The notes: generated from the letters alone by a model not told the origin. Shown: positions 764 to 28,053, counted from the first letter of the stretch. The stretch: 28,053 nucleotides of DNA from an uncultured Gammaproteobacteria bacterium (GCA_913043075.1 CAJWLI010000001.1:1-28053), one strand, 5' to 3'. Translations and numbers: made by a program.

Positions 764-770
764 GTTAGCA

Positions 771-1745: not shown

Positions 1746-2440
1746 ATAAGGTGTGTGCAGTTATTCCAATTGGAGATCTTTCATGCGCAAAGAGTCGACT
1801 TTCCAGCGTCCTAAGCAGAGAAGAAAGAACTAAGTTTTTTATAGCCATGGTGAAGGACGTGTTAAGTGCACTTAGCAAGTGTACTAAAGTCCAGTCGATA
1901 ATGGTGGTTACGAACGATGGAGAGGCGGCCTCCTTAGCCAATTCTTATGGAGCCGTGGTAAAGCCGGAACCCGAACATCCAGGATTAATCCAATCTGTGA
2001 CCCACGCTGCAGCGTTACTTGAAAAAGCTTACGCAGATATCATGTTATTTTTGCCAGGAGACGTGCCGTTGATAAACACTGAAGAGTTAGAGGCCGTTAT
2101 AGACGGCCTAAGCCAGTCAAAGGCTAGTGGACTAGTAATTGTTCCTTCTAAAGACTTTGGAGGCACGAACTGTATGGCTATATCCCCTCCAAGTGCGATA
2201 GACTTCCAGTTCGGGAAGGACAGTTACAGAAAGCACATTAAGAACGCGAGGAGCAAAGGAATTGAACCAGAAACGCTCACCTTGCCCGGCTTAGGTATGG
2301 ATATAGATACGCCTGAGGACCTTATGGTATTAATTAGGACGATTGGGGATACAAACCAGAACTTGGTTTCAAGCAGCACCTTTAATTACTTGAAGTCGAG
2401 CGGAATAGCAGAGCGTTTAACTAAACTATCTGGGGTATAA
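1742..2440 (+). CDS. cofC: Phosphoenolpyruvate/2-phospholactate guanylyltransferase (CofC/FbiD)
   Basis: Motifs AKSRL, PGDVP, GGTN, FGKDS..H and DIDTPED. The TTG start overlaps the cofD TGA (TTGA at 1742-1745); GTG 1751 is an alternative start. Confidence 0.93.
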   Translation: MNKVCAVIPIGDLSCAKSRLSSVLSREERTKFFIAMVKDVLSALSKCTKVQSIMVVTNDGEAASLANSYGAVVKPEPEHPGLIQSVTHAAALLEKAYADIMLFLPGDVPLINTEELEAVIDGLSQSKASGLVIVPSKDFGGTNCMAISPPSAIDFQFGKDSYRKHIKNARSKGIEPETLTLPGLGMDIDTPEDLMVLIRTIGDTNQNLVSSSTFNYLKSSGIAERLTKLSGV

Positions 2441-2447
2441 CAAACCG

Positions 2448-4955: not shown

Positions 4956-4968
4956 AAAGGGAGATTAA

Positions 4969-5964
4969 ATGAGCATACGTCAGAGGGTAGCGTTGACTTT
5001 GCCAGATCCGCGAGGAGTGAACGCAACGATTGAGATGGCTAGGCGCGCTGAGGCAGAGGGTTATGATGACCTTTGGTTCGCTGATTCGGGCGGCGTTGAC
5101 GCGTTGACGACCGCGGCCGCGGTCGCGATTAACACTAAGAGGGTTAGAATTGGTACGGCTATCATCCCCGTCTACACCCGCACACCGGCGGTTCTTGCGT
5201 CTACGACTCGCGTTTTGTGGGAGTTGTCAGAGGGACGCTTTATTCTCGGTCTTGGCTCGTCTAGTCAAACTATGATGGAAAACTGGAACGGTCAAAAGTT
5301 CGAAAAACCATTAACTCGGGTCAAGGAAACAACACAGTTAGTTAAGTCGATTCTTAGAGGCGAGAAGACAGATTACTCTGGTGAGACAGTAAAAAGCCGT
5401 GGCTACAAACAGATTCCTGTAGAAGATGGGGTGCAACCAGTTTATATGGCTGCATTGCGACCAGGCATGCTGGAGGCAGCTGCAGAGTTCTCCGATGGTG
5501 TAATTCTTAATTTATTCCCGAAAGAAGCTCTACCGAAAATGATGGAACATATCAGAATTGGAGCAGAAAGGGCTGGAAAGAGACTTGAGGATGTTGAGGT
5601 TGTCTGCAGACATCAAGTTGTAGTTACTGACGATAAAGAGAATTCAAGGAATTTAATACGTGCGGGCTTTGCCCCTTATTACGCCACCCCAGTTTACAAT
5701 AAATTTTTGGCATGGTGTGGCTACGAAGATGTGGCCGAGTCAATAAGAGATGGTTGGGCGTCCAAAGATAGAGATAAAACTACTAGCGCGTTGAGTGATA
5801 AGCTTGTTGAAGACATAGCTATTTTAGGCTCTGAGGAGCAGTGTCATGACCGTATAAGAGAATATGCGGAGATGGGGATTACTACTCATATTATCTCCTG
5901 TGTTTCTCCGAAAGATTCACAGCGAACCTTTCAAGCCTTTTCTGGCAATAAATTTAGTATTTGA
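4969..5964 (+). CDS. LLM-class (luciferase-like) oxidoreductase, probably F420-dependent, Mer-like
   Basis: Motifs AEAEGYDDLW, RIGTAIIPVYTRTP, SEGRFILGLG and ADGVILN-like. SD-like AAAGGGAG upstream; 13 bp after fbiC. Confidence 0.85.
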   Translation: MSIRQRVALTLPDPRGVNATIEMARRAEAEGYDDLWFADSGGVDALTTAAAVAINTKRVRIGTAIIPVYTRTPAVLASTTRVLWELSEGRFILGLGSSSQTMMENWNGQKFEKPLTRVKETTQLVKSILRGEKTDYSGETVKSRGYKQIPVEDGVQPVYMAALRPGMLEAAAEFSDGVILNLFPKEALPKMMEHIRIGAERAGKRLEDVEVVCRHQVVVTDDKENSRNLIRAGFAPYYATPVYNKFLAWCGYEDVAESIRDGWASKDRDKTTSALSDKLVEDIAILGSEEQCHDRIREYAEMGITTHIISCVSPKDSQRTFQAFSGNKFSI

Positions 5965-5991
5965 ATAAATCGACTTAAAAGAGGAAAAAAT

Positions 5992-6999
5992 ATGATAGTA
6001 GACGGTGGTATATCAACTGATAATCTCGCAGGTGTCCCAGCCCATGCCAAGAGACTCGAGGCACTTGGCTATCATGGCGCAGTTACGGCTGAAACATCGC
6101 ACGACCCATTCTTTCCCCTTTTGCTCGCGGCAGAGCACACAGAAAAAATTCAATTGGTTACATCAATTGCCGTCGCTTTCGCGCGAACGCCGATGAATTT
6201 GGCGAACATCGGGCATGACCTTAATAGCTTTTCGAAAGGACGTTTTGTTTTGGGCTTGGGATCTCAAATAAGACCTCATGTTACGAAACGATTTAGCATG
6301 CCCTGGTCAAAGCCAGCCGCCAGGATGCGGGAATTCATTTCTGCGATGCGGGCTATCTGGGACTGCTGGCATAATGGCTCACAGCTTTCCTTTAAAGGTG
6401 ATTTCTACGACCACTCGCTTATGACACCAATGTTCACGCCTTTGGATAGCGAATATGGCGCCCCACGGGTAATGCTGGCGGCGGTCGGTCCGTTGATGAC
6501 TGAGGTCGCAGGCGAGGTAGCGGACGGAGTTATTATTCATTCTTTTACGACGAAAAAATATTTACAGGAAGTGACGCTTCCTGCTGTTGAAAAGGGTCTT
6601 GAAAAGGCGGGCCGGTCAAGGTCGGACTTCCAGATATCGTACCCGGGCTTCATTGTGACTGGCAAAAATGAGGAAGAGTTCAATGCTACAAAAAAAGCGG
6701 TGTGCAAGCAGATAGCATTTTATGGCTCTACTCCTGCCTATGCGCCGGTTCTTGGTTCTCATGGTTGGGGAGATTTGCAGCCTGAATTGAATAAATTATC
6801 AAAGATGGGGAATTGGGATGAAATGGGATCTCTCATCACTGATGAGATTCTAAACGAATTTGCCATAGTGGGAGAACTGGATCAGGTGGTGGATAAGTTC
6901 AAAAATCGATACTCTGGTCTAGTTGACCGAACTATGGGATCTTTGCCCGCGCGTGATGACGAACACGCCAAAGAATTATTAAGGAACTTGAGCGCTTAA
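5992..6999 (+). CDS. LLM-class F420-dependent oxidoreductase, MSMEG_2256-like (TIGR03617-like)
   Basis: Strings I recall as typical of the family: AETSHDPF.PL.LAAEHT, VAFARTPM, LGLGSQIRPH..KRFSMPWS.PAARMREF and IAFYGSTPAY. SD GAGG upstream. Confidence 0.85.
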   Translation: MIVDGGISTDNLAGVPAHAKRLEALGYHGAVTAETSHDPFFPLLLAAEHTEKIQLVTSIAVAFARTPMNLANIGHDLNSFSKGRFVLGLGSQIRPHVTKRFSMPWSKPAARMREFISAMRAIWDCWHNGSQLSFKGDFYDHSLMTPMFTPLDSEYGAPRVMLAAVGPLMTEVAGEVADGVIIHSFTTKKYLQEVTLPAVEKGLEKAGRSRSDFQISYPGFIVTGKNEEEFNATKKAVCKQIAFYGSTPAYAPVLGSHGWGDLQPELNKLSKMGNWDEMGSLITDEILNEFAIVGELDQVVDKFKNRYSGLVDRTMGSLPARDDEHAKELLRNLSA

Positions 7000-7036
7000 A
7001 AAAGAAGATAGAGATTAATTACACAAGGAATAAGAC

Positions 7037-8071
7037 ATGAAGCTAGGAATTTTAAATGGTCTAGGCGGAAAAAATATCGCGATAGATATCAATAGAATAA
7101 AGGCAGCAGAGAGTATGGGTTATGACTCTGTCTGGACAGCAGAAGCTTACGGATCAGATGCTGTAACTCCGGCAGCCTGGATTCTCGCTCACACCGAAAA
7201 GATCAAGGTTGGAACAGCCATAATGCAAATGCCTGGACGCAGTCCAGCTTGCACCGCCAGTACTGCGATGACCCTCAATCAGCTCTCAAATGGACGATTT
7301 ATAGTCGGTCTAGGTGCTTCTGGCCCTCAAGTCGTGGAGGGTTGGCACGGGGTAGCATACGGCAGACCTATGACTAGAACAAAAGAATACATTGACATCA
7401 TGCGAAAGATATTCGCTAGAGAAGAACCGGTAGAGCATCAGGGGTTCCATTATAGTATGCCTTACCAGGGCGAAGACGGGACTGGACTTGGCAAGCCTTT
7501 AAAAAGCATGTTGGCAGCTGATACTTCAATAAAGATCTATACTGCTGCGATTACACCAAAAGGCTTAGAGACCTCAGGCGAGGTAGCAGACGGAGTGTTC
7601 CCTATATGGATGCCTCCAGAAAAAACCGATGTCTTGGTTGACTCTATTCAGAGTGGGCTCAGCAAATCCGGCAGGTCATTGGTTGAATACGATGTTGCCC
7701 CTTTTGTCACTGTCATGATTGGGGATAATCTTGATCATTGCAGAATGCCAATAAAAGGAAACATGGCGCTTTACATTGGCGGCATGGGAGCTCGGAACAA
7801 AAATTTCTATAATGACTATGCTAAAGCCTTGGGATATGAAGACGCCGCGATAAAGATCCAGGATCTTTTCTTGTCTGGAAAGAAAGATGAAGCCATGGCG
7901 GCGGTTCCAGACGAACTGGTCGATGCGTGCCATCTGGTAGGTCCAGTTGAGCGAATCAAAGAACGTCTGCAGGTTTGGAAGGAAGCCAGTGCCTCCGGAA
8001 AAATTGGTAGCATGTTAATTGGCGCGGGTCAGCAAGAAGCGTTGGAGCTAGTTGCGGGAGAAATGCTTTAG
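7037..8071 (+). CDS. LLM-class F420-dependent oxidoreductase, Rv3520c-like (TIGR03559-like)
   Basis: Strings GYDSVWTAEAYGSDA.TP.AWI, GLGASGPQVVEGWHG and ALYIGGMGAR.KNFYN, recalled as the Rv3520c family pattern. SD AAGGA upstream. Confidence 0.85.
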   Translation: MKLGILNGLGGKNIAIDINRIKAAESMGYDSVWTAEAYGSDAVTPAAWILAHTEKIKVGTAIMQMPGRSPACTASTAMTLNQLSNGRFIVGLGASGPQVVEGWHGVAYGRPMTRTKEYIDIMRKIFAREEPVEHQGFHYSMPYQGEDGTGLGKPLKSMLAADTSIKIYTAAITPKGLETSGEVADGVFPIWMPPEKTDVLVDSIQSGLSKSGRSLVEYDVAPFVTVMIGDNLDHCRMPIKGNMALYIGGMGARNKNFYNDYAKALGYEDAAIKIQDLFLSGKKDEAMAAVPDELVDACHLVGPVERIKERLQVWKEASASGKIGSMLIGAGQQEALELVAGEML

Positions 8072-14675: not shown

Positions 14676-15443
14676 TTAGCGAGGCTTCGCGCCTCCTCCT
14701 ACTCGAAGGATTTCGCCGCTAATCCAAGAGGCCGCATCTGAACTGAGGTATATGCAAGCGGATGAAATATCCTCTGGAGTTCCCAGTCTGCCGAGAGGAA
14801 TATTCCATTCTTCTAGAATGCTATCTAACTGTGTCTCGTCCTTCCCAATTGCTTTTAACATTACCTCTGTTGGGATTGCTCCGGGGGCTACCGCGTTAAC
14901 TCGAATGTTTGGGGCGAATTCCGCGGCAAAGGTCCATGTCAAAGAGTTTGTTCCAGCTTTGGCCGCTCCATAATGCGCACTCCCAGGAACTGGACCAGTT
15001 CCTGCTCCCGAAGTTATATTGATGATAGACCCTTTTTTCATATAACGTTCCGCTGTAAGGCAGCCCTCGTATATAGATGTAAGGTTAAGCGCTATGGTTT
15101 TATGCCATTCTTCTCTGGGCAGCTCTTTTGCTGGCATACGAAGAGGAGAGCCTCCGGCATTGTTGATCCAGTCGGTTAATTTCCCAAATTCCCCGACCGC
15201 AGTGCTCCCTAATTTATCAAGGTCACTACTTTTTGTCACATCGGCAGTTATAGCGATAGCAGTTCCTCCTGCTTCTCTAATTCTTTGCTCCACTCCTTTA
15301 ATTTCTTCTGTTCTCCGAGCGGCAAGCACTACTTTCGCTCCAGCTTTTGCGAAATCTTCGGCGATTCCCTGTCCAATGCCTCTTCCAGCGCCAGTGACCA
15401 CGGCCACTCTTCCCTCAAGACTGTATCTGTCAAGAATACTCAT
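14676..15443 (-). CDS. Classical SDR, FabG/7-alpha-HSDH-like, probably NADP(H)-preferring
   Basis: Motifs TGAGRGIG, NNAG, YGAAK and RVNAVAPG. Basic ARR after beta-2. The SD AGGAG overlaps the pckG stop. Confidence 0.92.
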   Translation of the reverse strand: MSILDRYSLEGRVAVVTGAGRGIGQGIAEDFAKAGAKVVLAARRTEEIKGVEQRIREAGGTAIAITADVTKSSDLDKLGSTAVGEFGKLTDWINNAGGSPLRMPAKELPREEWHKTIALNLTSIYEGCLTAERYMKKGSIINITSGAGTGPVPGSAHYGAAKAGTNSLTWTFAAEFAPNIRVNAVAPGAIPTEVMLKAIGKDETQLDSILEEWNIPLGRLGTPEDISSACIYLSSDAASWISGEILRVGGGAKPR

Positions 15444-17349: not shown

Positions 17350-19044
17350 TCAAAGAGCATTTTTTAGATCCAGGCTTTCCCGCAGCTCTCGTTTTAGGAA
17401 TTTTCCATTCGCGTTCCGAGGAAGCGGTGACTCATTAAACCAAATGTATTTAGGAACCTTATGTTTGGCCATGTGTGAGAAGCAGAACTCCCTAATTTCT
17501 GTCACTGTTTTTGTTGACCCTGGAACTATATAGATTACCGCACCGACTTCTTCCCCAAGTCTGTCGTCTGGAACACCAAAAACCGAACATTCTGAAATTT
17601 CTGAAATTTTATGCAAGGTTGTTTCAACCTCTGAGCAATAGATATTTTCTCCTCCTCGAAGAACCATGTCTTTTACCCTGTCGACTATAAATATAAACCC
17701 TTCCTCGTCGCATCTGGCTACATCCCCAGTGTGGAGCCATCCATCGGTAATAGCTTCTCTCGTCGCGTCGGGTCGATTGATATATCCCTTAATAACTGGC
17801 GCGCCCCTGACCCATAGTTCTCCGTCATGGCCGTTTGGCTGTTCCGTTCCATCGGCATTCACAATTTTTGTTTCAAAAACAGGCATGGCAGGACCACAGC
17901 TTTCTGGTTTATCTAAAAAAAATATTCCAGCAATGGACGTAATGATGCCGCAGGTTTCAGTCATCCCATAACCTGTGCTTGGGCGAGCCTCTCCCGAGGA
18001 ATCAATTTTTTCCACAAGATCGGGCTGCAACTGCGCTCCACCTCCACCTAGATTTAACAGCGAAGAGGTGTCGTACTTTTTAAATTCTGGATGACTGAGC
18101 AATTCGCGAGACATAACCGGCACCCCCGACATCGAGGTTATCTTTTCTCGTTCTATCAGCCTGAGTGCTTCACTCGCATCCCAGCGATACATATGAACTA
18201 ATTTCCCTCCTGCAATCGTAGTCATGTGGGCAACACAATTGTTTGCGGTTACGTGAAACATCGGAGTGGTAACCAGAGCGCTTGGAGTGGGAGTGTCTTT
18301 TGGGTTGGGTTCGGGAACCATCTGAGTGCGGCACGTAGCTGACAAACTGAGTTGTCCCGCAAAGGCGAGGTTCATAATATTGTGTACGCATCCCCGGTGA
18401 GTCAGTTGAGCTCCCTTGGGATAACCGGTTGTGCCAGACGTATAAAAAATGCATGCATCATGATCTGGTTCAATATCAACTTCCGGCGAAGCAGCCGAAC
18501 TTTCCTTCACTTCTTGATAGTCTATAACGCTGGGCTGTCCTTTTTCTGTTCTGACTCCTACAACTTTCATTCCTGCAAAGTCGGAGTTAATTTCGAAAAA
18601 TCGCTGAAGACGCTCGCTATCTGCAAAAAGCACTTTCGGCTTCGAGTCTGAGAGCCCATATTCCATTTCATCTGCGACCCACCAAGCATTCATCCCTACT
18701 ACAACGATTCCAGTAGTGACACAGGCCCAGTAGATGAGAATCCACTCAGGATAGTTTCTCATGGCGATGGCTACCCTATCTCCTTTAGAGATGCCTTGAT
18801 TTCTAAGCCAACTAGCAACAGAGGACACTTCTTGGTGAGCTTGGTCGTAGGTCCAGCGCTGATCTTCAAAGACAAGATATTCTGAGGCAGCAAACTCCTT
18901 TGTTGGCTGCCATATGTCTCGAAGGTTGCTAGGCGCCTTGTCATAGATACGCATAGGTGACCCTCTCACTTCGATTTCCTTAACAGAAAAAGGCCCGTCT
19001 TTTTCGGTAAGTTCTTCCCACACTTCCTTGTAGATTTTATACAT
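17350..19044 (-). CDS. Class I adenylate-forming enzyme, long-chain fatty-acid--CoA ligase-like
   Basis: Motifs YTSGTTGYPKG, GYGMTE, LHTGD, DRVKDMVLRGGENIY, PDDRLGE and NGK. Confidence 0.93.
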   Translation of the reverse strand: MYKIYKEVWEELTEKDGPFSVKEIEVRGSPMRIYDKAPSNLRDIWQPTKEFAASEYLVFEDQRWTYDQAHQEVSSVASWLRNQGISKGDRVAIAMRNYPEWILIYWACVTTGIVVVGMNAWWVADEMEYGLSDSKPKVLFADSERLQRFFEINSDFAGMKVVGVRTEKGQPSVIDYQEVKESSAASPEVDIEPDHDACIFYTSGTTGYPKGAQLTHRGCVHNIMNLAFAGQLSLSATCRTQMVPEPNPKDTPTPSALVTTPMFHVTANNCVAHMTTIAGGKLVHMYRWDASEALRLIEREKITSMSGVPVMSRELLSHPEFKKYDTSSLLNLGGGGAQLQPDLVEKIDSSGEARPSTGYGMTETCGIITSIAGIFFLDKPESCGPAMPVFETKIVNADGTEQPNGHDGELWVRGAPVIKGYINRPDATREAITDGWLHTGDVARCDEEGFIFIVDRVKDMVLRGGENIYCSEVETTLHKISEISECSVFGVPDDRLGEEVGAVIYIVPGSTKTVTEIREFCFSHMAKHKVPKYIWFNESPLPRNANGKFLKRELRESLDLKNAL

Positions 19045-19123
19045 TTACTTTAGCGCTTATTTGAGAATTTTGGTTAAGATATGCGTTCTGAGGTTTTGTT
19101 GCAATCAACTGGGAGATTTGCCT

Positions 19124-20307
19124 GTGAAATACCTTTTTGATGGATTAAAAGTCGTTGATTTAGCGAGCTTTTTAGCAGCGCCCGGTGCTGCAACCCTATT
19201 GGGAGATTTCGGCGCAGAAGTAATCAAGATAGAGCCCCCTAGCGGAGACGGTTATCGGCGACTTCATGGTAACTGGAAGTCAGATTACAACTGGCAACTT
19301 ACAAGTCGTAACAAAAGAGGGCTCTCTCTTGATATTCGTTCAAAACAAGGGAAAAAGGTTTTATTTCGTCTGTTAGAAGAGGCCGACATTTTAGTAACAA
19401 ACTTCAGATCCGATCAATTGACAGATTATGATTTAGATTTTGAGACGCTTCACGAATTCAATTCTCGTCTAATTCTGGCTCAAGTAACTGGATATGGAAA
19501 TCTCGGACCCGACTCCAATAAAAAAGGTTTCGATACGACAGCGTGGTTTGCCCAGACAGGGATTATGGAGCTGACAAGGCAGATGAATAATCCCCCGGCT
19601 TTCCCTGCCGGAGGAGTTGGAGATCATTCAACGGCCATGGCCCTTTTTGCCGCAATTCTAATGGCCATGCTGAAACGTGAGCACACGGGGAAAGGATCCT
19701 TTGTCGAAACTTCTCTTGTTGCAAATGGCTGCTGGGCTAACGGGATGGGGCTTCAGGGTGCTATTTCTGGTTTTGATCTGGGATCTTTCTTACAAAAAAA
19801 AACAAGAAGTCCCTTCGCAGATGTTTACGAGACTAGAGATGGTCGCTATATAACCCTAGTGCTGACCGATCCTGAAAGGGAGTGGCCTAGGTTAGCAAAA
19901 GCGCTGGGACAAGAGGATTGGCTTGAAGACGAAAGATTCTCTGAGCTCAAAAATTTATTCAAAAATAAGAGCTTGGCAAAGGAGATGTTTTCAAGAAAGA
20001 TAAAATCAATGCTTTTAAAGGATATCTGTCTTTGTTTGGACGAATATGATTTAACACATGGAGTAGTGGAGGATCTCACTTCAGTTGTCCAAGATGCACA
20101 CCTTATCGAGAATGGGATAATTACGTCTACGGAATCAGAAGATCCAAATTTTAAATGGACTGTGGCTAATCCCATCAAAGTTTCTGGCGAAATGACTCGG
20201 CCTGTTTCAGACCCGCCATACAAAGGTCAACACACTCGCTGCGTCTTAGAGGAGCTTGGCTTCTCCGCCGATGAGATTGATCAGTTATACTCCGACGGTG
20301 TGATTTT

Positions 20308-20311
<4 letters not shown>
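19124..20311 (+). CDS. Class III CoA-transferase (CaiB/BaiF family)
   Basis: Motifs [33 protein letters not shown] and ADILVTNF, plus the putative catalytic Asp in GVGDH. GTG 19124 with SD GGGAG (19111-19115) is preferred over the track's TTG 19061. Confidence 0.92.
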
Positions 20312-21327
<1,016 letters not shown>

Positions 21328-21347
21328 ATAATCAAGCACCCTTAAAA

Positions 21348-21376
21348 CTGATAATTTATCACAATCTTGGTAACCT
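21348..21376 (+). promoter_or_regulatory. Putative promoter of the phosphotransferase gene, overlapped by the palindrome TGATAA-T-TTATCA (21349-21361)
   Basis: CTGATA, a 17-nt spacer, then TAACCT with an extended TG at 21368-21369. On the minus strand the palindrome also contains TGnTAAATT facing the MDR gene. Confidence 0.45.
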
Positions 21377-21404
21377 TTTGGAGTCAACCTCTGAGGAGAG
21401 ATTA

Positions 21405-22430
21405 TTGATTGAAGGCATCAACCATGAGCTAGTTTCCGATTGGCTAAAAAAGGAAATCTCGGAACTTTCAATGCCACTGTCTTTTTCGTTGATAGCAGGA
21501 GGCCATTCCAATCTTACCTTTCATTGCGAGGACAGCTCTGGTCGGTCTCTCGTCCTGCGACGTCCTCCGTTAGGAGAAATTCTCAATTCTGCGCATGATA
21601 TGGTTAGAGAGCACAAGATAATCTCATCTCTTAAGAACACTGCAGTTCCGGTTCCTGAAACGCTTGGGCTTTGCGAAGATGGCTCTATTAATGGTGCAGA
21701 TTTTTATACGATGGACTTCGTTGAGGGCGATGTCTTAAACGACTCGGTTATTTCCTCCTCTCTCTCTGTAGACGACAAACAATCAATAAGCAGAGACGTT
21801 GTGGAAATACTATGTTCTTTGCATGCGATTGATCCAGATGATGTTGGGCTCGGTGACCTCGGTAGGAAGGACAGTTATCTTAGTCGACAAATAAAAAGAT
21901 GGGTCGCTCAGTGGAATGCCTCAAAAACTCACGAAATTCCTGAGATGGAAGAAAGCTGTGAGCTTTTGCTTCAAAACCTTCCAGAACAAATTGGGTCGGC
22001 CATAGTTCATGGCGATTTTAGATTAGGAAATATGATCGTTTCCGGTGGCCACGTCAGAGCTGTCTTGGATTGGGAACTTTGCACTTTGGGGGATCCCTTA
22101 GCTGATTTGGGTTACGTTCTAAACAATTGGCTTACTCTTGAAGAGGTCCCAGAACCAGGAGAGGGAGATCAGGCTCCAACTGCAGCGGGAGGTTTCTTTT
22201 CACGAGAAGAATTTCTTAATGTTTATGCCAATAAAACTGGAAGGGATATTTCTAAGGTTAACTACTATCGGGCATTCTCTCACTGGCGTCTGGCTGCTAT
22301 CGGACAAGGTGTTTATAAGAGATATCTAGTTGGTGCTATGGGAAGTGAACGAGAGTTAGATTTAGAGAAACAAAAGGACAGTGTCTCTCGAAGAGCTGCG
22401 GCAGCATTAGAGCTCTTGTCAACGACTTAA
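21405..22430 (+). CDS. APH-family phosphotransferase, ACAD10/11 N-terminal/LvaA-like
   Basis: Motifs GGHSNLT, LVLRRPP, AHDM.REH, FY.MDFVEG, RQIKRW, HGDFRLGN and AVLDWELCTLGDPLADLG. TTG 21405 has a GAGGAG SD 6 nt upstream; the track gives TTG 21378. Confidence 0.9.
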   Translation: MIEGINHELVSDWLKKEISELSMPLSFSLIAGGHSNLTFHCEDSSGRSLVLRRPPLGEILNSAHDMVREHKIISSLKNTAVPVPETLGLCEDGSINGADFYTMDFVEGDVLNDSVISSSLSVDDKQSISRDVVEILCSLHAIDPDDVGLGDLGRKDSYLSRQIKRWVAQWNASKTHEIPEMEESCELLLQNLPEQIGSAIVHGDFRLGNMIVSGGHVRAVLDWELCTLGDPLADLGYVLNNWLTLEEVPEPGEGDQAPTAAGGFFSREEFLNVYANKTGRDISKVNYYRAFSHWRLAAIGQGVYKRYLVGAMGSERELDLEKQKDSVSRRAAAALELLSTT

Positions 22431-23266
22431 TGTATAACTGTTGGCTGGCGGGCAAAAGATGATAAGCGTTTAATCGCGATAGAGCGTATGTCTTCACTGA
22501 ACTCCTGATCTGTTATTATTTCTTTGTATTTTCTTTCTGCTTTAGGCTGGGCTCCTCGCATCTCGAATACGGCCCCTAATTGCAGTTCGAATTGGCTTTT
22601 TTTTTGCGAGAGAAGGATTTGGTTTTCAATGCAGCGTTGGCATTGTTTCCACTCTTTTTTCCTCCAGAAAATACTTTTCAGATTGTCAATTAATCGAACA
22701 AGAGTTTCTCTTTTTGTCGCCACTCGAAGATGAGTATTGTCGAGTTCCAAACGACCCCCGGAAATCTGTTTTAACAATGTTTTACAATCGTGTGTGTTGA
22801 GTTCTCTGCCAAAAAAAGGGTCGACTAGCGATCCGCCATCTTCTTTATATCGAACAAGAAAATGCCCTGGGAAGCCAATTCCCTCTACAGGGATATCTAA
22901 CCTAGCTCCAATAGACATCTGCAGTATAGCGAGGCTAATCGGGATGCCAACTCGATTATCGATTACTTTGTTTAGGTAACTATTAGCTGGGTCGAAATAA
23001 TTGCTTTTATTTCCAGCAAAACCGGTTTCTTTATAAAAAAAAGAAATCATGGCTTTTGCACCAGTTATTTCAGGTACGGATTGTCTGTAAAGATTAAAGT
23101 CTTCAGCAAGTGAATCGATCCTATTAAGATATTGCTGAATGCCAGCATCTTCTCCGATTTCAATAGCTAGCAGCAGCGCCGCCTCGTCAAGCGGAAGAAA
23201 TCCCTCTTCCATCAAAGCTATTTCAGTCAATCTTTTTTGAGCGAATCGGTTGGGATCACTATTCAT
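22427..23266 (-). CDS. SirB1/YchA family protein (transglutaminase-like core plus TPR-like tail)
   Basis: Motifs GF.GN..NYFDP.NSYLN.V...R.GIPISL, GIGFPGHFLVR, DPF and RL..NLK. Confidence 0.88.
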   Translation of the reverse strand: MNSDPNRFAQKRLTEIALMEEGFLPLDEAALLLAIEIGEDAGIQQYLNRIDSLAEDFNLYRQSVPEITGAKAMISFFYKETGFAGNKSNYFDPANSYLNKVIDNRVGIPISLAILQMSIGARLDIPVEGIGFPGHFLVRYKEDGGSLVDPFFGRELNTHDCKTLLKQISGGRLELDNTHLRVATKRETLVRLIDNLKSIFWRKKEWKQCQRCIENQILLSQKKSQFELQLGAVFEMRGAQPKAERKYKEIITDQEFSEDIRSIAIKRLSSFARQPTVIH

Positions 23267-23319
23267 AAAGCTGTTCTCTAAGGATCGCTAATCATCTTTT
23301 TCCGATCGGATTTACGAAA

Positions 23320-23994
23320 TCACCACTCATCAACATGCATTATTTCTTCAACGTCGGGCCTGTATGCCGGCTTGAAACTTGTTCCTTTTGTGTAGGCTAT
23401 CGGAATAAGGGCTATTTGCATAAATTCATCGTAAGGGATACCTATGAGTTCAGCTATCTCCTTTTCGTGCATCAGGTGCAAAGTAGTCCAAGCAGTCCCT
23501 ATCCCCCTGGCTCTGGCGGCGAGCATGAAACTCCAGGCGGCTGGTATGATAGACCCATAAAGAGCTGATTGTGCTAAAACATTGTTGCTCTCAGCATTGT
23601 CGGTCCTTCCAGCGATGCAAGGAATCATCATCACTGGCACTTTACCCATATTTTCGCCCAAATAATCGGCTGAAGAGGCAGATCTCTCCTGACTGTTCGT
23701 CAAATCTTTGTCGTCAGATTCCGAATGAAGTTTGTGAATAGCCATAGGCATCTCTTTGTAAAGGCTAAACGCTTGGCGATAGAGTTCTCCAATTTTCGCT
23801 CTCTTTTCGGGATCGGTTACAAATACGAATTGCCAGCTTTGAGAGTTTGAACCTGTGGGCGCCTGCACGGCCATCTCCATGCATTCTTTTACAACTTCCA
23901 TCGATAGCGATCGTTCTAAGTCAAGTCGCTTTCTGACTGCCCTAGTAGTGCTCAAAAGCTCATCATTGGAAAGACCTAATTGTGCGTGATTCAT
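23320..23994 (-). CDS. Nitroreductase-family (FMN) protein, Rv3368c-like
   Basis: Motifs DELLSTTRAVRKRLD, QAPTGSNSQ.WQ.VFV, PAAWSFMLA.R.RG.GT.WTTLHL and GIPYDE...ALIPIAYT, matching my recall of M. tuberculosis Rv3368c. The SD TAAGGA overlaps the ACAD stop. Confidence 0.88.
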   Translation of the reverse strand: MNHAQLGLSNDELLSTTRAVRKRLDLERSLSMEVVKECMEMAVQAPTGSNSQSWQFVFVTDPEKRAKIGELYRQAFSLYKEMPMAIHKLHSESDDKDLTNSQERSASSADYLGENMGKVPVMMIPCIAGRTDNAESNNVLAQSALYGSIIPAAWSFMLAARARGIGTAWTTLHLMHEKEIAELIGIPYDEFMQIALIPIAYTKGTSFKPAYRPDVEEIMHVDEW

Positions 23995-24007
23995 TTCTTT
24001 TTCCTTA

Positions 24008-25306
24008 TTACCAAGTTGCTATTTCTCGTTCTATTTGATCGCCATAAAGAGCGATGGCATCTTCTTGCCGACGTGGAAGGCTATATGAAGGGAAAAGGTC
24101 CTGAGAGGGTTCGTAATCTCTCAGGACTTGCCTAGCTACGGTTACTTTGTGTACCTCTGTTGGTCCGTCTGCAAGCCCCATTGCATAGGAGCCGATGAGC
24201 ATGGAGGTAAAGGGCATTTCGTTAGAAATTCCAAGCGAACCGTGAATGTGGAGCGCTCTGGATACTACGTCATGATATACCTTTGGCATCGCAGCCTTGA
24301 TTGCAGCGATATCTTTTCTGACCTTTAAGTAGTCATTATACTGATCTATTCTCCAAGCGGTTCTGAGCACCAATAGTCTAAACTGTTCCATCTCTATCCA
24401 AGAATCCGCTATTTTTTCCTGTACCATCTGTTTGTCTGCCAGTATTTCACCCTTTGTTTGCCTAGATAGCGCTCTCTCGCACATCATGTCGAAAGCTTTC
24501 TTGATTTGACCCAAGGTCCTCATTGCATGATGAATCCGCCCTCCACCTAAGCGGGTTTGGGCAACTGCAAACGCCTGACCTCTGGGTCCAAGCATGTTGC
24601 TTTTTGGAACTCGCACGTCTTCGTATCTAATGTACCCATGGGAACCTTTCCCCGGAGCTTCGGTTCCAACACCTACGTTCCTTAATATGTTTATTCCCGG
24701 AGTTTCAGCTGGAACAATGAATTGACTCATTCTTTGATGAGGAGCGGCTTCTGGGTCGGTTACTACCATAACTATAAGAAAAGAAGCATGTCTTGCGTTT
24801 GAGGAGTACCATTTTTCTCCATTAATTACATAATCATCTCCGTCTTCAACTGCCATACATTTGAACATGGTCGGGTCTGCACCGGCGTGAGGCTCGGTCA
24901 TTGAGAAGCAAGAAACAATTTCTCCATCAAGAAGTGGCTTAAGATATTTCTCTTTATGTTCCTCGGTTCCATAATGAGCTAGGATTTCTGCGTTACCCGA
25001 ATCTGGTGCCTGACATCCAAATACGATGGGGGCAAAGCGCGACGTTCCAAGTATTTCATTTAGTAAAGCTAGTTTGAGTTGGCCATAACCGGGCCCACCC
25101 AGATCAGGACCTAAATGGCAAGCCCAGAGCCCTCTATCTTTAACTTCTTCTTGGAGAGGCCGAACCAACTTAATGAAGTCGGGGTCATTAACCATATAGC
25201 TCTCGTTAAGGACTAAATCGAGAGGCGCAACTTTTTTGTCGACGAATTCGGTTGCCCAATCTAAAACACTTTGAAATTCTGGATCTGTATCAAAACCCCA
25301 ACTCAT
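24008..25306 (-). CDS. Acyl-CoA dehydrogenase, ACAD10/11 (FadE2/LvaC-like) subfamily
   Basis: Motifs CQAPDSGN.EIL..YGT, FSMTEP, INGEKW, AQTRLGGGRIHH.MR and GLADGPTEVH. SD GAGGAG upstream. Confidence 0.92.
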   Translation of the reverse strand: MSWGFDTDPEFQSVLDWATEFVDKKVAPLDLVLNESYMVNDPDFIKLVRPLQEEVKDRGLWACHLGPDLGGPGYGQLKLALLNEILGTSRFAPIVFGCQAPDSGNAEILAHYGTEEHKEKYLKPLLDGEIVSCFSMTEPHAGADPTMFKCMAVEDGDDYVINGEKWYSSNARHASFLIVMVVTDPEAAPHQRMSQFIVPAETPGINILRNVGVGTEAPGKGSHGYIRYEDVRVPKSNMLGPRGQAFAVAQTRLGGGRIHHAMRTLGQIKKAFDMMCERALSRQTKGEILADKQMVQEKIADSWIEMEQFRLLVLRTAWRIDQYNDYLKVRKDIAAIKAAMPKVYHDVVSRALHIHGSLGISNEMPFTSMLIGSYAMGLADGPTEVHKVTVARQVLRDYEPSQDLFPSYSLPRRQEDAIALYGDQIEREIATW

Positions 25307-25336
25307 TCGCTTACTCCTCTAAAAATATTTATTTCC

Positions 25337-26347
25337 CTAATAAGAACTGTCTGTAAAACTATCACGTTTACCAGATATTTTCTTCAGCCGCTCTTTTTTT
25401 TCTCGTTTTCGATTTTTTTGATCTTTTTTGGCTTCCTCGCCTAAATGAATTTCTTTTCGCTGTGCTGCAAGGTTAATTTGTTTTTGTCGTTCCCTAAACC
25501 TCAATCTATCGTGATCTGTCTTAGTCTCTATGCAATGAGGACAACTAATCCCTTTTACGAAATCTTGGCTTAACTTATCTTCTTTGCTTATTGGTGTTCG
25601 GCAGGCATGGCACTGCTCGAATGAGCCCTCTTGAAGATCCTGGTCTACGGTTACTCTATTGTCGAAGACAAAACACTCTCCGTTCCAGAGGGATTTCTCC
25701 GTCGGAACCTCTTCAAGATACTTAAGTATACCTCCCTCCAAATGAAACACGTTTTCAAAACCATTTTCCTTCAAAAAAGAAGTAGACTTTTCGCAACGTA
25801 TACCTCCCGTGCAAAACATTGCTATTTTTTTCTCGCTTTTGTTTTTTAAATAGGTCTTTGCGAATTTCGGAAATTCCCTGAATGTTTTTGTTCCCGGATT
25901 AATCGCGCCCGGGAAGGTTCCAACTTTTATTTCATATTCATTTCGAGTGTCTATTAAAATAACGTTCGGATCCGAGATCATCTCATTCCAGTCTTCAGGC
26001 TTGATATAGGTCCCAGCAGAGGCGAGAGGATCAATGTCAGGCAAACCCATGGTTACGATTTCACGTTTTATTTTTACAGTCCTTCGTAAGAAGGGTTGTT
26101 GACTTGTTACCGATTTTTTCACTGACAGTTTTTTAAAACCCTTTTGTGAAAGGAAGACTAAAAAATCATTAATGCCGGTCTCACGGCCGGAGACCGTACC
26201 ATTGATCCCCTCTCTCGCGATTAAAACAGTTCCTCGAATAGAGTTTTGTTCAAAGATTGCATCTATTTCTTTGCGTAGGCTCTCTAAATTATCCGTTTTT
26301 ATGAACTGGTAGATAGCGCATACGACAAACTTTTCTTCGTCTTCCAA
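25337..26347 (-). CDS. trhO: Oxygen-dependent tRNA uridine(34) hydroxylase TrhO (YceA, rhodanese domain)
   Basis: Motifs GT.LIA.EGINGT, KREIVTMG, IDTRN.YE..VGTF, MFCTGGIRCEK, HLEGGILKYLE, GECFVFDNR and C..C...CPHC. TTG start. Confidence 0.93.
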   Translation of the reverse strand: MEDEEKFVVCAIYQFIKTDNLESLRKEIDAIFEQNSIRGTVLIAREGINGTVSGRETGINDFLVFLSQKGFKKLSVKKSVTSQQPFLRRTVKIKREIVTMGLPDIDPLASAGTYIKPEDWNEMISDPNVILIDTRNEYEIKVGTFPGAINPGTKTFREFPKFAKTYLKNKSEKKIAMFCTGGIRCEKSTSFLKENGFENVFHLEGGILKYLEEVPTEKSLWNGECFVFDNRVTVDQDLQEGSFEQCHACRTPISKEDKLSQDFVKGISCPHCIETKTDHDRLRFRERQKQINLAAQRKEIHLGEEAKKDQKNRKREKKERLKKISGKRDSFTDSSY

Positions 26348-26436
26348 TCGTTTTAACCTTCCTGCTTTTTTTATATCAATCTAGTAGTATATTATCATTC
26401 GATTCGCTGTGAATAACCTTTATTGAGGAGAGAAGT

Positions 26437-27273
26437 ATGGCCATAGATCCTAATGCTGTTGGACAAAGAGGGCAGCCATCTAATAGAAGTTGGAACTCAA
26501 AAGATGCGCTACTCTATGCGGTCGGAATTGGTGCCGGCATTGATGAGCTGCAATATACAACGGAAAATACTAAAGATGTTGTTCAAAAAGTTTTTCCTAC
26601 GTTTGCAGTGATTATAGGAGGCGGCGGCATCCCAATGAAAGAGGTCGGATCTTTTAACCCTGCCCTGATGGTTCACGGAGAACAAGGAATTGAGTTGCTG
26701 GGAGAGATTCCACCTGATGGAGAGATTGAGAGTGTCGGAGAATGTAGCGCGATTTGGGACAAAGGTTCTGCTGCAGTCTTGGAGTTTACTTCTGAATCTC
26801 GTAACGTTAAGACAGGGGAACCGCTTCTGCGAACTAAGACCTCACTTTTTTGTCGCGGTGAAGGAGGTTGGGGAGGCGATCGTGGTCCATCAGACAAACT
26901 AGAATTTCCGGACAGATCTCCAGATAAAAAAATCACATATGCCACCCGAGAAGACCAAGCTCTAACATATCGACTTTCAGGAGATCGTAATCCCCTTCAC
27001 TCTGATCCATCTTTTGCCGCAATGGGCGGGTTTGACAAACCCATCCTTCATGGTTTGTGCACATATGGTATAACGGGAAGAGCTTTGCTCCATGGGTTGT
27101 GTGAAGGTGATGCAGGCCGCTTCCTTTCAATGAACGCGAGATTTTCAAAACCAGTGATTCCTGGCGATTCGCTGACAGTCTCTATGTGGATAGTTGGAAA
27201 AAAAGCTCTTTTTCGCACTGAAAATCAAAACAACGAGATTGTGATTGATCAAGGAGAATTTAGTTTTTCTTGA
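26437..27273 (+). CDS. MaoC/hydratase-2 double-hotdog dehydratase, HtdY (Rv3389c)-like
   Basis: Hydratase-2 motif YRLSGDRNPLHSDP, plus PILHGLCTYG and ARFSKPV.PG. The N-terminal MAIDPN and TREDQAL match my recall of Rv3389c. SD GAGGAG. Confidence 0.92.
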   Translation: MAIDPNAVGQRGQPSNRSWNSKDALLYAVGIGAGIDELQYTTENTKDVVQKVFPTFAVIIGGGGIPMKEVGSFNPALMVHGEQGIELLGEIPPDGEIESVGECSAIWDKGSAAVLEFTSESRNVKTGEPLLRTKTSLFCRGEGGWGGDRGPSDKLEFPDRSPDKKITYATREDQALTYRLSGDRNPLHSDPSFAAMGGFDKPILHGLCTYGITGRALLHGLCEGDAGRFLSMNARFSKPVIPGDSLTVSMWIVGKKALFRTENQNNEIVIDQGEFSFS

Positions 27274-27361
27274 AAAGATTCTTATTAAACAGTGATCTAA
27301 GTTAACTGATGTAGGCTAATAGGCATCTTCTTAGTAACGGTCTAATAAAAGAGTGATTTGT

Positions 27362-28053
27362 ATGAGTGGAAATTACGTTTGGATATTGGCTATTTTAGCG
27401 AGTGTACTCTTTGGTTTTTTGCTAGCTTGGGCTGGTAGCGATGGAAGTATGCAAATCTATGGATTGCCTCTTTTTTCTATTTCGGTGGTCTTCGCCTTTC
27501 TTATTCAGTGGATTTGTTTCGTCCCCTCTTTTCTTTTTCAGACAGAGAAATATTTTGATCTTACGGGCAGCTTAACCTATGTCTCGATAATAATTTTTGC
27601 TTTGGTAATGTCGGATGATCTGGGAGCGCGAAAACTTACGATAGGGATTTTTGTTCTTTTGTGGGCATTTCGATTGGGAACATTTTTGTTTTCTCGAATT
27701 AGATCAGCTGGTGAAGACTCCAGATTTAAAGTGATTAAAACTAATTTCTTCCAATTTTTGATGACCTGGTCTCTTCAGGGGCTTTGGGTTTGCGTCACTT
27801 GTGGTGCTGCTCTGGCAGCCATTACCTCTGATAAACAAAACTCTTTGGGTGTTTTCTTTTTCGTGGGGTCTGCTTTTTGGTTGGTAGGTTTTTTCGTTGA
27901 AGTATTGGCTGATCACCAGAAATCTGAATTTAATCGAGAGCTGGAGAATTCTGGAAAGTTTGTTCACACAGGGTTGTGGGCTTGGTCTAGGCATCCTAAC
28001 TACTTCGGTGAAATTATGCTTTGGTCAGGGTTAGCAGTTGTTGCTTTGCCTGT
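27362..28053 (+). CDS. DUF1295 integral membrane protein (steroid 5-alpha-reductase-like), truncated at the window end and absent from the ORF track
   Basis: My translation from ATG 27362 is open to the end: MSGNYVWILAIL...QTEKYFDLTGSLTY...LWAFRLGTFLFSRI..GEDSRF...TWSLQGLWV...EVLADHQK...TGLWAWSRHPNYFGEIMLW. It is highly hydrophobic. Confidence 0.9.
   Translation, partial: MSGNYVWILAILASVLFGFLLAWAGSDGSMQIYGLPLFSISVVFAFLIQWICFVPSFLFQTEKYFDLTGSLTYVSIIIFALVMSDDLGARKLTIGIFVLLWAFRLGTFLFSRIRSAGEDSRFKVIKTNFFQFLMTWSLQGLWVCVTCGAALAAITSDKQNSLGVFFFVGSAFWLVGFFVEVLADHQKSEFNRELENSGKFVHTGLWAWSRHPNYFGEIMLWSGLAVVALP

What the first reader, a model, noticed from the sequence alone, without database searches (positions are those of the whole stretch)
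21405..25306. Split ACAD10/11 (lva-like) kinase plus dehydrogenase suggests 4-hydroxy/4-oxo acid catabolism
Seen: an ACAD10/11-type APH kinase and an ACAD10/11-type dehydrogenase lie about 1.6 kb apart on opposite strands. An acyl-CoA ligase, CoA-transferase, SDRs, a hydratase and a thiolase are nearby. Known: Pseudomonas putida LvaA (APH), LvaC (ACAD), LvaD (SDR) and LvaE (ligase) convert levulinate via 4-phosphovaleryl-CoA, and eukaryotic ACAD10/11 fuse the two domains. No small LvaB-like ORF was found next to the kinase. Inference: a scattered, possibly longer-chain version of this route, perhaps handling P450- or LLM-generated hydroxy acids.
Basis: partly seen in the sequence, partly recalled or inferred. 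Interest (0 to 1): 0.6.

Follow-up and report, generated by a model that had tools for sequence, protein, structure and literature searches.

The report
Split ACAD10/11-type kinase and dehydrogenase
A marine gammaproteobacterium encodes, as two separate genes 1.6 kb apart, the kinase and the unusual flavoenzyme that mammals fuse in ACAD10/11 to feed 4-hydroxy fatty acids into beta-oxidation; bacterial pairs of this kind are already known, so this is a correct but fairly ordinary find.

Summary
An APH-fold kinase (21405-22430, +) and an acyl-CoA dehydrogenase (24008-25306, -) lie 1,578 bp apart on opposite strands. Both match mouse ACAD11 far better than they match ordinary relatives.

- **ACAD:** it has the catalytic Asp (ADGP) and the phosphate-binding Arg and His-x-Met-Arg cluster (HAMR here, HCMR in ACAD11).
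- **Kinase:** it keeps every catalytic residue and both proposed CoA-binding arginines.
- **Subclade:** both proteins fall in a sister subclade to the animal ACAD10/11 branch. The closest long relatives of the ACAD are bacterial ACAD-APH fusions in reversed domain order. The kinase domains of these fusions are sister to the window kinase.
- **Neighbours elsewhere:** across 80 named genomes, APH, SDR, acyl-CoA ligase and MDR reductase genes crowd next to this type of ACAD. The window holds all four.
- **Not an lva-like operon:** the genes are on both strands, mixed with unrelated genes. The ACAD is missing from this spot in many genus relatives that keep the kinase.
- **Partner uncertain:** the MAG has four kinases of this family and only one such ACAD was found.

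The scan has noted split pairs like this in at least 51 other genomes. Verdict: a new member of a known kind, of low to moderate interest.

The parts
21405..22430 (+). APH-fold small-molecule kinase of the ACAD10/11 kinase family, called 'APH-1' in this report (341 aa from the TTG at 21405; the longest ORF starts at 21378)
   Evidence: Pfam APH 4.6e-49. PDB matches: 9o56 2e-58, 3dxp 1e-56, mouse ACAD11 5.6e-47. Beta3 Arg, alphaC Arg-Glu, the RQxxxW Arg, HGD, Asn and DWE are all kept. GAGGAG ribosome-binding site before 21405. An ortholog is present in 24 of 24 genus genomes searched.
24008..25306 (-). ACAD10/11-type (FadE2-like) acyl-CoA dehydrogenase, 'HAMR' subclade; predicted 4-phosphoacyl-CoA phosphate-eliminating flavoenzyme
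   Evidence: PDB matches: 4hr3 2.6e-78 and ACAD11 5e-76, against 4e-41 for ordinary ACADs. The motifs TRLGGGRIHHAMR and LADGP correspond to ACAD11 R626, H634, R637 and D753. It forms a starred clade with bacterial ACAD-APH fusions.
20308..21387 (-). MDR-family (PIG3/quinone-oxidoreductase-like) NAD(P)H reductase, divergent from the kinase; a likely accessory reductase. Its true start is probably downstream of 21387.
   Evidence: Pfam ADH_zinc_N and ADH_N. TIGR02824 at 240.7 bits, below its cut-off. It lies next to APH-1 in most genus genomes. Relatives at 27-43% identity lie within 2.5 kb of ACAD10/11-type ACADs in 12 of 80 loci, against 2, 1 and 0 in the farther bins.
17350..19044 (-). Acyl-CoA ligase (FadD-like; nearest models are long-chain and steroid-24-oyl-CoA ligases, all below cut-off); a candidate activating enzyme
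   Evidence: Pfam AMP-binding 6.2e-80; NCBIfam. It is syntenic with APH-1 across the genus. Ligases are enriched next to ACAD10/11-type ACADs (18/7/6/0 by distance bin).
19061..20311 (+). Family III CoA-transferase, conserved beside the ligase and the kinase
   Evidence: Pfam CoA_transf_3 5.3e-86. It is syntenic across the genus. It is not enriched next to such ACADs elsewhere.
14676..15443 (-). SDR reductase; a candidate for the LvaD-like 4-oxoacyl-CoA reductase step (weak assignment)
   Evidence: Pfam adh_short 4.2e-49. SDRs 28-39% identical to it lie within 2.5 kb of ACAD10/11-type ACADs in 24 cases, against 1, 7 and 6 farther out. In the window it is 6 kb from the kinase.
26437..27273 (+). 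MaoC / MFE-2-type (R)-specific enoyl-CoA hydratase; possible downstream beta-oxidation step
   Evidence: Pfam MaoC_dehydratas 2.2e-30 and MFE-2_hydrat-2_N 2.6e-25. It is syntenic in most genus genomes, with or without the ACAD.
22427..23994 (-). Two intervening genes that are probably not part of the route: a SirB1-like transglutaminase-fold protein (22427-23266) and a nitroreductase-family protein (23320-23994)
   Evidence: Pfam Transglut_core2 1.7e-43 and Nitroreductase 5.7e-21. Both keep their place in genus genomes that lack the ACAD at this spot.

Best explanation
The two genes encode a split version of the ACAD10/11 module.
1. A 4-hydroxy (or reduced 4-oxo) fatty acid is activated to its CoA ester. 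The candidates are the ligase at 17350-19044 and the family III CoA-transferase at 19061-20311.
2. The APH-fold kinase (21405-22430) uses ATP to phosphorylate the 4-hydroxyl of the acyl-CoA.
3. The atypical FAD enzyme (24008-25306) abstracts the alpha-proton with Asp in place of the usual Glu. It holds the 4-phosphate with an Arg and a His-x-Met-Arg cluster, and eliminates phosphate to give 2-enoyl-CoA.
4. The product enters beta-oxidation (MaoC hydratase, thiolase).
5. The MDR reductase that is divergent from the kinase, and an SDR, may prepare the substrate by saturating a double bond or reducing a 4-oxo group.

Shown: family membership, conservation of the catalytic residues, natural fusions, and recurrent gene neighbours.
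Inferred: the substrate, which is unknown in chain length and origin; that this particular kinase serves this ACAD; and the roles of the accessory genes.
For: - Both proteins match the two domains of mouse ACAD11 well above other families.
- The ACAD keeps the equivalents of R626, H634, R637 and D753. Changing these residues abolished ACAD11 activity (PMC12440821). An ordinary ACAD in the same genome (contig C13) has the usual Glu and no such cluster.
- The kinase keeps HGD, Asn, DWE, the beta3 Arg, the alphaC Arg-Glu and the RQxxxW Arg.
- The best long relatives of the ACAD are bacterial ACAD(N)-APH(C) fusions, 60-64% identical, for example in Parafrankia. Their kinase domain is nearer to the window kinase (34%, 1e-48 to 1e-52) than to the MAG's other kinases (26-29%).
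- The trees agree with this pairing.
- In 80 named genomes, APH genes lie within 2.5 kb of such ACADs 39 times, against 6, 1 and 0 in the farther bins. SDR, ligase and MDR reductase genes show the same crowding.
- The ligase-transferase-reductase-kinase block is syntenic across the genus, and the ACAD lies next to it in six genomes.
- A split Burkholderia pseudomallei pair replaced the ACAD10 domains in vitro (PMC11342911).
Against: - The cluster is not an operon. The kinase is monocistronic between genes on the opposite strand, and the ACAD sits in a trhO-ACAD-nitroreductase-sirB1 run.
- At least seven genus genomes keep the kinase block but have no ACAD at this spot. In the complete genomes G020, G023, G005 and G018, no ACAD10/11-type hit lies near the kinase.
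- Only 13 of about 32 'HAMR'-type ACAD loci have an APH within 5 kb, and most of the closest relatives (62-71% identity) have none.
- The MAG has four kinases of this family and only one such ACAD was found. Two of those kinases (contigs C24 and C122) are closer to animal ACAD10/11 kinases. Relatives of the C24 kinase (46-50% identical to it) lie beside or near ACADs in sister families.
- No member of this subclade has been assayed.
Confidence: 0.58

Rival explanations
1. The ACAD is a 4-phosphoacyl-CoA eliminase, but the neighbouring kinase is not its dedicated partner. The kinase belongs to a separate conserved block (ligase, CoA-transferase, MDR reductase, and in some relatives a wax-ester synthase). 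It phosphorylates another lipid alcohol, such as an alkyl- or acylglycerol or another hydroxy-lipid. The ACAD is a variable gene that landed in, or was lost from, a conserved backbone, and it is served by one of the other kinases (contigs C24, C122).
For: - The ACAD is absent from this spot in many genus genomes that keep the kinase block.
- The kinase ortholog is present in 24 of 24 genus genomes, including ones whose best ACAD hit is only 42-45% identical, the range where the typed examples were HCMR.
- A WS/DGAT gene lies 82 nt upstream of the kinase, on the same strand, in G020.
- The kinase's best solved relative (9o56) phosphorylates 1-O-alkylglycerol in vitro, stimulated by acetyl-CoA (bioRxiv 10.1101/2025.09.10.675409).
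- The C24 and C122 kinases are closer to the ACAD10/11 kinases. Relatives of the C24 kinase lie beside or near ACADs in G026, G028 and G030.
Against: - The kinase domains fused to the closest ACAD relatives are sister to the window kinase clade, not to the C24/C122 clade.
- The proposed CoA-binding arginines are kept.
- The conserved neighbours of the kinase make CoA esters.
- MDR reductases like its divergent neighbour recur in ACAD-APH clusters.
- The alkylglycerol activity is known only from a preprint and in vitro.
Confidence: 0.25
2. The 'HAMR' subclade ACAD does not use a phosphorylated substrate. Its Arg/His cluster binds another anionic or polar group on an acyl-CoA made by oxygenases, and no kinase is needed.
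For: - Most of the closest relatives (62-71% identity) have no APH within 10 kb.
- Some relatives sit in P450-MFS-ACAD (G009) or P450-LLM-ACAD-TetR clusters.
- The subclade is separate from the assayed ACAD10/11 branch, and no member has been characterised.
Against: - Every residue shown to be needed for phosphate elimination in ACAD11 is kept.
- Members of the same starred clade are fused to APH kinases.
- Eight 'HAMR' loci have an APH within 300 bp.
Confidence: 0.12
3. The juxtaposition has no functional meaning, and one or both genes are inactive or unrelated to hydroxy-acid catabolism.
For: - The genes are on opposite strands, with unrelated genes between them.
- Promoter-like and terminator-like sites in the region are no more frequent than in shuffled sequence.
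Against: - Both ORFs are intact.
- The ACAD is 85-92% identical to its genus orthologs, and the catalytic residues are intact.
- The same families co-localise widely elsewhere.
Confidence: 0.05

Closest known systems
Mammalian ACAD10 / ACAD11 (mouse ACAD11, PDB 8v3u/8v3v; PMC12440821, PMC11342911)
   Same: The same two domains are present, with strong sequence matches to both (5.6e-47 and 5e-76). The kinase catalytic residues and the proposed CoA-binding arginines are the same. The ACAD has the same Asp base and the same Arg plus His-x-Met-Arg phosphate cluster.
   Different: Here there are two separate genes on opposite strands, not one polypeptide. The ACAD is only about 41% identical to the animal ACAD domain and the kinase 32-41% identical to the animal kinase domain. 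The motif is HAMR, not HCMR. Both proteins fall in a sister subclade. There is no HAD domain.
Pseudomonas putida levulinate operon lvaABCDE (Rand et al. 2017, as described in PMC6692424, PMC11342911)
   Same: The enzyme set is the same: an APH kinase, an atypical ACAD, a reductase and an acyl-CoA ligase. The expected chemistry is the same, through a 4-phosphoacyl-CoA intermediate.
   Different: There is no single operon, no LvaB-like small gene and no LvaR-type regulator in the window. Unrelated genes are interspersed, and an MDR reductase and a CoA-transferase are present in addition. The substrate is unlikely to be levulinate specifically. Direct comparison with the Lva proteins could not be made.
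Bacterial split pairs already assayed (Burkholderia pseudomallei LvaA/LvaC orthologs, PMC11342911) and the many adjacent APH-ACAD pairs in genomes
   Same: A stand-alone kinase plus a stand-alone ACAD10/11-type ACAD. Such a pair can replace the ACAD10 domains in vitro.
   Different: Most such pairs are adjacent and on the same strand: 39 APH genes lie within 2.5 kb in 80 loci. Here three... in fact two unrelated genes separate them, and the link is not conserved across the genus.
Bacterial ACAD(N)-APH(C) fusion proteins (e.g. Parafrankia sp. EAN1pec, P0002)
   Same: These are the closest long relatives of the window ACAD (60-64% identity, the same HAMR and ADGP motifs). Their kinase domain is sister to the window kinase clade.
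   Different: They are fused in the order opposite to animal ACAD10/11, whereas the window genes are split. None is characterised.

Membership tests
ACAD10/11-type (FadE2-like) acyl-CoA dehydrogenases | Sequence is closer to the ACAD10/11 ACAD domain than to ordinary ACADs | tested here: met
   ACAD11 5e-76 and 4hr3 2.6e-78, against 4e-41 for the best ordinary ACAD.
ACAD10/11-type (FadE2-like) acyl-CoA dehydrogenases | Catalytic Asp (ACAD11 D753) in place of the canonical Glu | tested here: met
   LADGP at residues 378-382 aligns with ADGP of ACAD10/11. The ordinary ACAD on contig C13 has TEG there.
ACAD10/11-type (FadE2-like) acyl-CoA dehydrogenases | Phosphate-binding cluster: Arg (R626) plus the HCMR motif (H634, R637) | tested here: met
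   TRLGGGRIHHAMR: the Arg, His and Arg are kept. The Cys is Ala (HAMR), as in 4hr3 and in the bacterial fusions. The role of the Cys was not tested in the paper.
ACAD10/11-type (FadE2-like) acyl-CoA dehydrogenases | Falls inside the clade of assayed members (animal ACAD10/11; LvaC by reported identity) | tested here: not met
   The window ACAD sits in a separate 100/100 'HAMR' clade. Animal ACAD10/11 group with bacterial HCMR types. No LvaC sequence was available.
ACAD10/11-type (FadE2-like) acyl-CoA dehydrogenases | [quoted passage not shown] | not testable with these tools
   Needs an enzyme assay.
ACAD10/11 kinase family (CDD ACAD10_11_N-like, by my recall of the name) | APH fold with HGD catalytic Asp, Asn, DWE metal site, beta3 Arg and alphaC Glu | tested here: met
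   VLRR, REH, HGDFRLGN and LDWE align with the ACAD10/11 and C. thermarum residues (bioRxiv 10.1101/2025.09.10.675409).
ACAD10/11 kinase family (CDD ACAD10_11_N-like, by my recall of the name) | Arginines proposed to bind the CoA moiety (ACAD11 R86, R176) | tested here: met
   The Arg before the alphaC Glu, and the Arg of SRQIKRW, are conserved in all members aligned. The residue mapping was made through Ambystoma ACAD11, which has a numbering offset of about 3.
ACAD10/11 kinase family (CDD ACAD10_11_N-like, by my recall of the name) | Falls in the clade of the animal ACAD10/11 kinase domains | tested here: not met
   The window kinase groups with a second genus paralog and with the kinase domains of the bacterial fusions (81/73; its inner clade 97/95). 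The animal domains group with the MAG's C24 and C122 kinases.
lva operon (P. putida lvaABCDE) | Kinase, small LvaB, ACAD, SDR and ligase in one co-directional operon under LvaR | tested here: not met
   The genes alternate strands over 10 kb with unrelated genes between them. There is no room for a 12-kDa ORF beside the kinase. No conserved small ORF lies beside the APH in 80 related loci either.
lva operon (P. putida lvaABCDE) | Reciprocal best match to LvaA and LvaC; an LvaB homologue present | not testable with these tools
   No Lva sequence could be fetched. The two Pseudomonas loci recovered (L126, L127) have no APH within 10 kb and are not lva operons.

The most novel reading that the evidence does not exclude
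The 'HAMR' ACAD subclade and its matching kinase clade form an uncharacterised sister system to ACAD10/11 and LvaAC. This system has fused independently, in the reversed domain order, in Actinobacteria. It may handle a different class of substrate, for example long-chain or oxygenase-derived hydroxy-acyl-CoAs, as hinted by the P450, LLM and MFS neighbours, or another C4 leaving group. In this marine lineage several kinases would feed one eliminase.
Probability: 0.25. Interest if true: 0.5.

Novelty: new member of a known kind. Interest (0 to 1): 0.3.

Why it matters
If the reading is right, abundant marine Azotimanducaceae (HTCC2089 / OM182 group) can feed 4-hydroxy or 4-oxo fatty acids into beta-oxidation by the phosphorylation-elimination route known from Pseudomonas and mammals. 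Such acids arise from lipid peroxidation, lactones and oxygenase products. That adds a little to the picture of marine lipid turnover. The more useful general points are these:
- The family splits into HCMR and HAMR subclades, each with its matching kinase clade.
- The HAMR branch, which includes reversed-order fusions, has no assayed member.
- MDR reductases are recurrent but unstudied partners of these clusters.

None of this overturns current knowledge.

Tried and rejected
- **Fetching P. putida LvaA, LvaB and LvaC for reciprocal comparison.** The Rand 2017 paper is not held. The named control genomes include no Pseudomonas. The single genome-contig scan returned two Pseudomonas loci that are not lva operons. 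This comparison was therefore not done.
- **LvaB by homology.** This was not possible without a sequence. As substitutes I checked the free space around the kinase and found none. I also looked for any conserved small ORF beside the APH genes in 80 related loci and found none.
- **DUF6285 as a possible LvaB-like domain.** DUF6285 is fused to another APH on contig C13. It occurs only there in this genome, and no paper mentions it. The idea remains unsupported.
- **A SAR86 locus (L131).** I looked for the ACAD/APH/small-protein triad reported earlier by the scan. It is not that locus.
- **Promoter and terminator scan of 20000-27400.** There were fewer sites than in shuffles, so it is uninformative.
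- **The nitroreductase as an FbiB-C-like dehydro-F420-0 reductase.** There is a weak NCBIfam hit (1.8e-6), but no FbiB among the solved-structure matches. This is left open.
- **GC and GC3 of the ACAD against its neighbours.** There is no sign of recent foreign origin.
- **Complex prediction for kinase plus ACAD.** I did not run it. The report does not claim that they bind, and one job could not discriminate among four candidate kinases.

Full report
**What is there.** The window is the whole of contig C1 of a 1.5-Mb MAG that is 71% complete. Near-identical proteins carry the name Candidatus Azotimanducaceae, in the Pseudomonadales. The finding covers two genes.

- The kinase is an APH-fold protein. 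The longest ORF is 21378..22430 (+). The TTG at 21405 is preceded by GAGGAG, and the homologues are 339-341 aa long, so 21405 is the likely start.
- The acyl-CoA dehydrogenase (ACAD) is 24008..25306 (-), 432 aa.
- They are 1,578 bp apart. Between them lie a SirB1-like transglutaminase-fold gene (22427-23266, -) and a nitroreductase-family gene (23320-23994, -).

**Family assignment.** Against solved structures, the kinase matches the Caldalkalibacillus thermarum 'ACAD10 kinase' (9o56, 2e-58), 3dxp (1e-56) and mouse ACAD11 (5.6e-47). The next family scores 2.5e-08. The ACAD matches 4hr3 (2.6e-78) and ACAD11 (5e-76), against 4e-41 for the best ordinary ACAD.

Rashan et al. (PMC12440821) showed that ACAD11 needs a catalytic Asp (D753) and a phosphate-binding cluster (R626, and H634 and R637 of an 'HCMR' motif). 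The window ACAD has TRLGGGRIHHAMR and LADGP at the aligned positions, so only the Cys differs. An ordinary ACAD on contig C13 of the same MAG has the usual Glu and no such cluster.

The kinase keeps HGD, the Asn and DWE. It also keeps the beta3 Arg and alphaC Glu described for the C. thermarum enzyme, and the two arginines proposed to hold the CoA moiety in ACAD11 (bioRxiv 10.1101/2025.09.10.675409). The observation, including the 'ACAD10/11-type' label, is therefore confirmed.

**Subclades and natural fusions.** A search for longer relatives of the ACAD found animal ACAD10/11 at about 41% identity. Well above these, it found bacterial proteins of 765-815 aa at 60-64% identity, for example from Parafrankia sp. 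EAN1pec. These carry the ACAD at the N-terminus and the APH at the C-terminus. This is the reverse of the animal order, which points to a separate fusion event.

- In a tree of ACAD domains, the window protein and its orthologs form a starred clade with these fusions. That clade lies inside a 100/100 'HAMR' clade. Animal ACAD10/11 group with bacterial 'HCMR' proteins.
- In the kinase tree, the window kinase ('APH-1') and a second genus paralog ('APH-2') form a 97/95 clade. This clade is sister (81/73) to the kinase domains of the fusions. Animal kinase domains group with the MAG's other two kinases, on contigs C24 and C122.
- By BLAST, the fused kinase domain is 34% identical to the window kinase, against 26-29% to the C24 and C122 kinases. 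Those two are 38-40% identical to ACAD11, against 32% for the window kinase.

The kinase and ACAD subclades thus match each other. This is a Rosetta-stone argument that the two window genes belong together. They are nevertheless a sister branch of the assayed enzymes. Paquay et al. report LvaC as 56-62% identical to ACAD10/11 (PMC11342911), which would put LvaC on the other branch. I could not check this directly.

**Gene neighbourhood within the genus.** The order ligase, CoA-transferase, (MDR reductase), kinase, SirB1-like, (nitroreductase), TrhO, (MaoC), DUF1295 is kept in most of the genus genomes examined. Bracketed genes are missing from some genomes. Two divergent genomes (G015, G013) keep only part of the order. 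Kinase identity in these genomes is only about 60-74%.

- The ACAD lies between the nitroreductase (or the SirB1-like gene) and TrhO in G000, G022, G014, G019, G008 and G016.
- In G020, G023, G018, G007, G002, G011 and G021 the same spot has no ACAD. In G020, TrhO is followed directly by the nitroreductase.
- The kinase ortholog is present in 24 of 24 genus genomes searched.
- In the complete genomes G020, G023, G005 and G018, no ACAD10/11-type hit lies near the kinase.

The conserved partners of the kinase are therefore the ligase, the CoA-transferase and the reductase. The ACAD is a variable member of the region. The genes alternate strands, so this is not an operon like lva. The ACAD could be co-transcribed with trhO, the nitroreductase and the SirB1-like gene, since the gaps are 30, 13 and 53 nt. 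The promoter scan gave no information on this.

**Gene neighbourhood across bacteria.** One scan of named genomes with an alignment of HAMR ACADs gave 80 loci with 10-kb flanks. The table counts neighbours by distance from the ACAD.

| Neighbour | 0-2.5 kb | 2.5-5 kb | 5-7.5 kb | 7.5-10 kb |
|---|---|---|---|---|
| APH kinase | 39 | 6 | 1 | 0 |
| SDR | 24 | 1 | 7 | 6 |
| Acyl-CoA ligase | 18 | 7 | 6 | 0 |
| MDR reductase like the window's | 12 | 2 | 1 | 0 |

The usual cluster is therefore ACAD, APH, SDR and ligase, which mirrors LvaC, LvaA, LvaD and LvaE, plus an MDR reductase. The window holds all of these within 10 kb.

The link is looser for the HAMR type. Thirteen of about 32 HAMR loci have an APH within 5 kb, eight of them within 300 bp. 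Most of the closest relatives (62-71% identity) have none within 10 kb. Some relatives sit in P450-MFS-ACAD (G009) or P450-LLM-ACAD-TetR arrangements. This gives anecdotal support to the idea that oxygenase products are the substrates.

**LvaB.** There is no free space for a 12-kDa ORF beside the kinase. No conserved small ORF lies beside the APH genes in the 80 loci. ACAD10/11 work without LvaB, a B. pseudomallei pair replaced the ACAD10 domains in reactions where no LvaB is mentioned, and P. citronellolis lacks lvaB (PMC12440821, PMC11342911, PMC6692424). Its absence is not evidence against the route. A homology search for LvaB could not be made.

**Other kinases and rival readings.** The MAG encodes four kinases of this family, and only one ACAD10/11-type ACAD was found in its 71% of the genome. 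The four are:
- the window kinase;
- the APH-2 ortholog, cut by the end of contig C222;
- the kinase on contig C24;
- the kinase on contig C122.

Relatives of the C24 kinase (46-50% identical to it) lie directly beside HCMR ACADs in two sister families (G026, G028) and about 6 kb from one in a third (G030). Which kinase serves the window ACAD is therefore open.

A preprint reports that ACAD10 kinase homologues, including the window kinase's best solved relative, phosphorylate 1-O-alkylglycerols in vitro with stimulation by acetyl-CoA. In G020, and apparently in several other genus genomes that show the same 1.5-kb gap, a wax-ester synthase/DGAT gene lies just upstream of the kinase ortholog. 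A lipid-alcohol kinase role that is independent of the ACAD is the main rival. I give it about 0.25.

**Verdict.** There is no lva-like operon, the pairing is not conserved across the genus, the proteins belong to a sister subclade, and the claims about chain length and oxygenases remain untested. Split bacterial pairs of this module have been assayed (PMC11342911), and this scan has noted them in at least 51 other genomes. This is a new member of a known kind. My confidence in the main mechanism is 0.58, and interest is 0.3.

Noticed in passing
G000 contig C13: 6740-8020 (+) and 8004-9425 (+) (locus L041): This is a second, tightly coupled ACAD-kinase pair in the same MAG. An ordinary Glu-type ACAD overlaps by 17 nt an APH kinase that carries a C-terminal DUF6285 domain. 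It is a different family from ACAD10/11. DUF6285 occurs nowhere else in the genome, and no paper mentions it. Whether DUF6285 is related to the small LvaB partner is an untested idea.
   Followed up: partly
window 23320-23994 (-): This stand-alone nitroreductase-family gene gives a weak hit to the C-terminal part of the NCBIfam coenzyme F420-0:L-glutamate ligase model NF009810 (profile positions 259-429, E 1.8e-6) and to BluB. No FbiB chain appeared among its solved-structure matches, so the question stays open.
   Followed up: partly
L029:10484-11824 (-) (G020), with the same gap in G019, G023, G005 and G007: A wax-ester synthase/diacylglycerol acyltransferase gene sits 82 nt upstream of the kinase ortholog, on the same strand, in several genus genomes. 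It is absent from the window. This hints at a lipid-alcohol link for this kinase.
   Followed up: partly
proteins P0001-P0003, P0007, P0009, P0014: These bacterial proteins, mostly actinobacterial and 765-815 aa long, fuse an ACAD10/11-type ACAD at the N-terminus to an APH kinase at the C-terminus. This is the reverse of the animal ACAD10/11 order, so it appears to be an independent fusion.
   Followed up: partly
L027:7122-11299 (G009) and L057:7468-11897: Close relatives of the window ACAD lie in P450-MFS-ACAD and P450-LLM-ACAD-TetR arrangements with no kinase nearby.
   Followed up: partly
L047:7098-11716 (G026 contig C29): The gene order here is ACAD, SDR, APH, histidine phosphatase, SDR. 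It resembles the P. citronellolis lva cluster, in which a histidine-phosphatase gene replaces lvaB (PMC6692424).
   Followed up: no
window 2-8071: An F420 biosynthesis cluster (cofE, cofD, cofC, fused fbiC) followed by three luciferase-like oxidoreductases. The scan has already reported and followed up this cluster.
   Followed up: no
genus genomes G001-G024: Larger genomes of this genus carry up to nine ACAD10/11-type ACAD paralogs but only three kinases of the family at E<=1e-30. The eliminase family has expanded far beyond the kinases.
   Followed up: no
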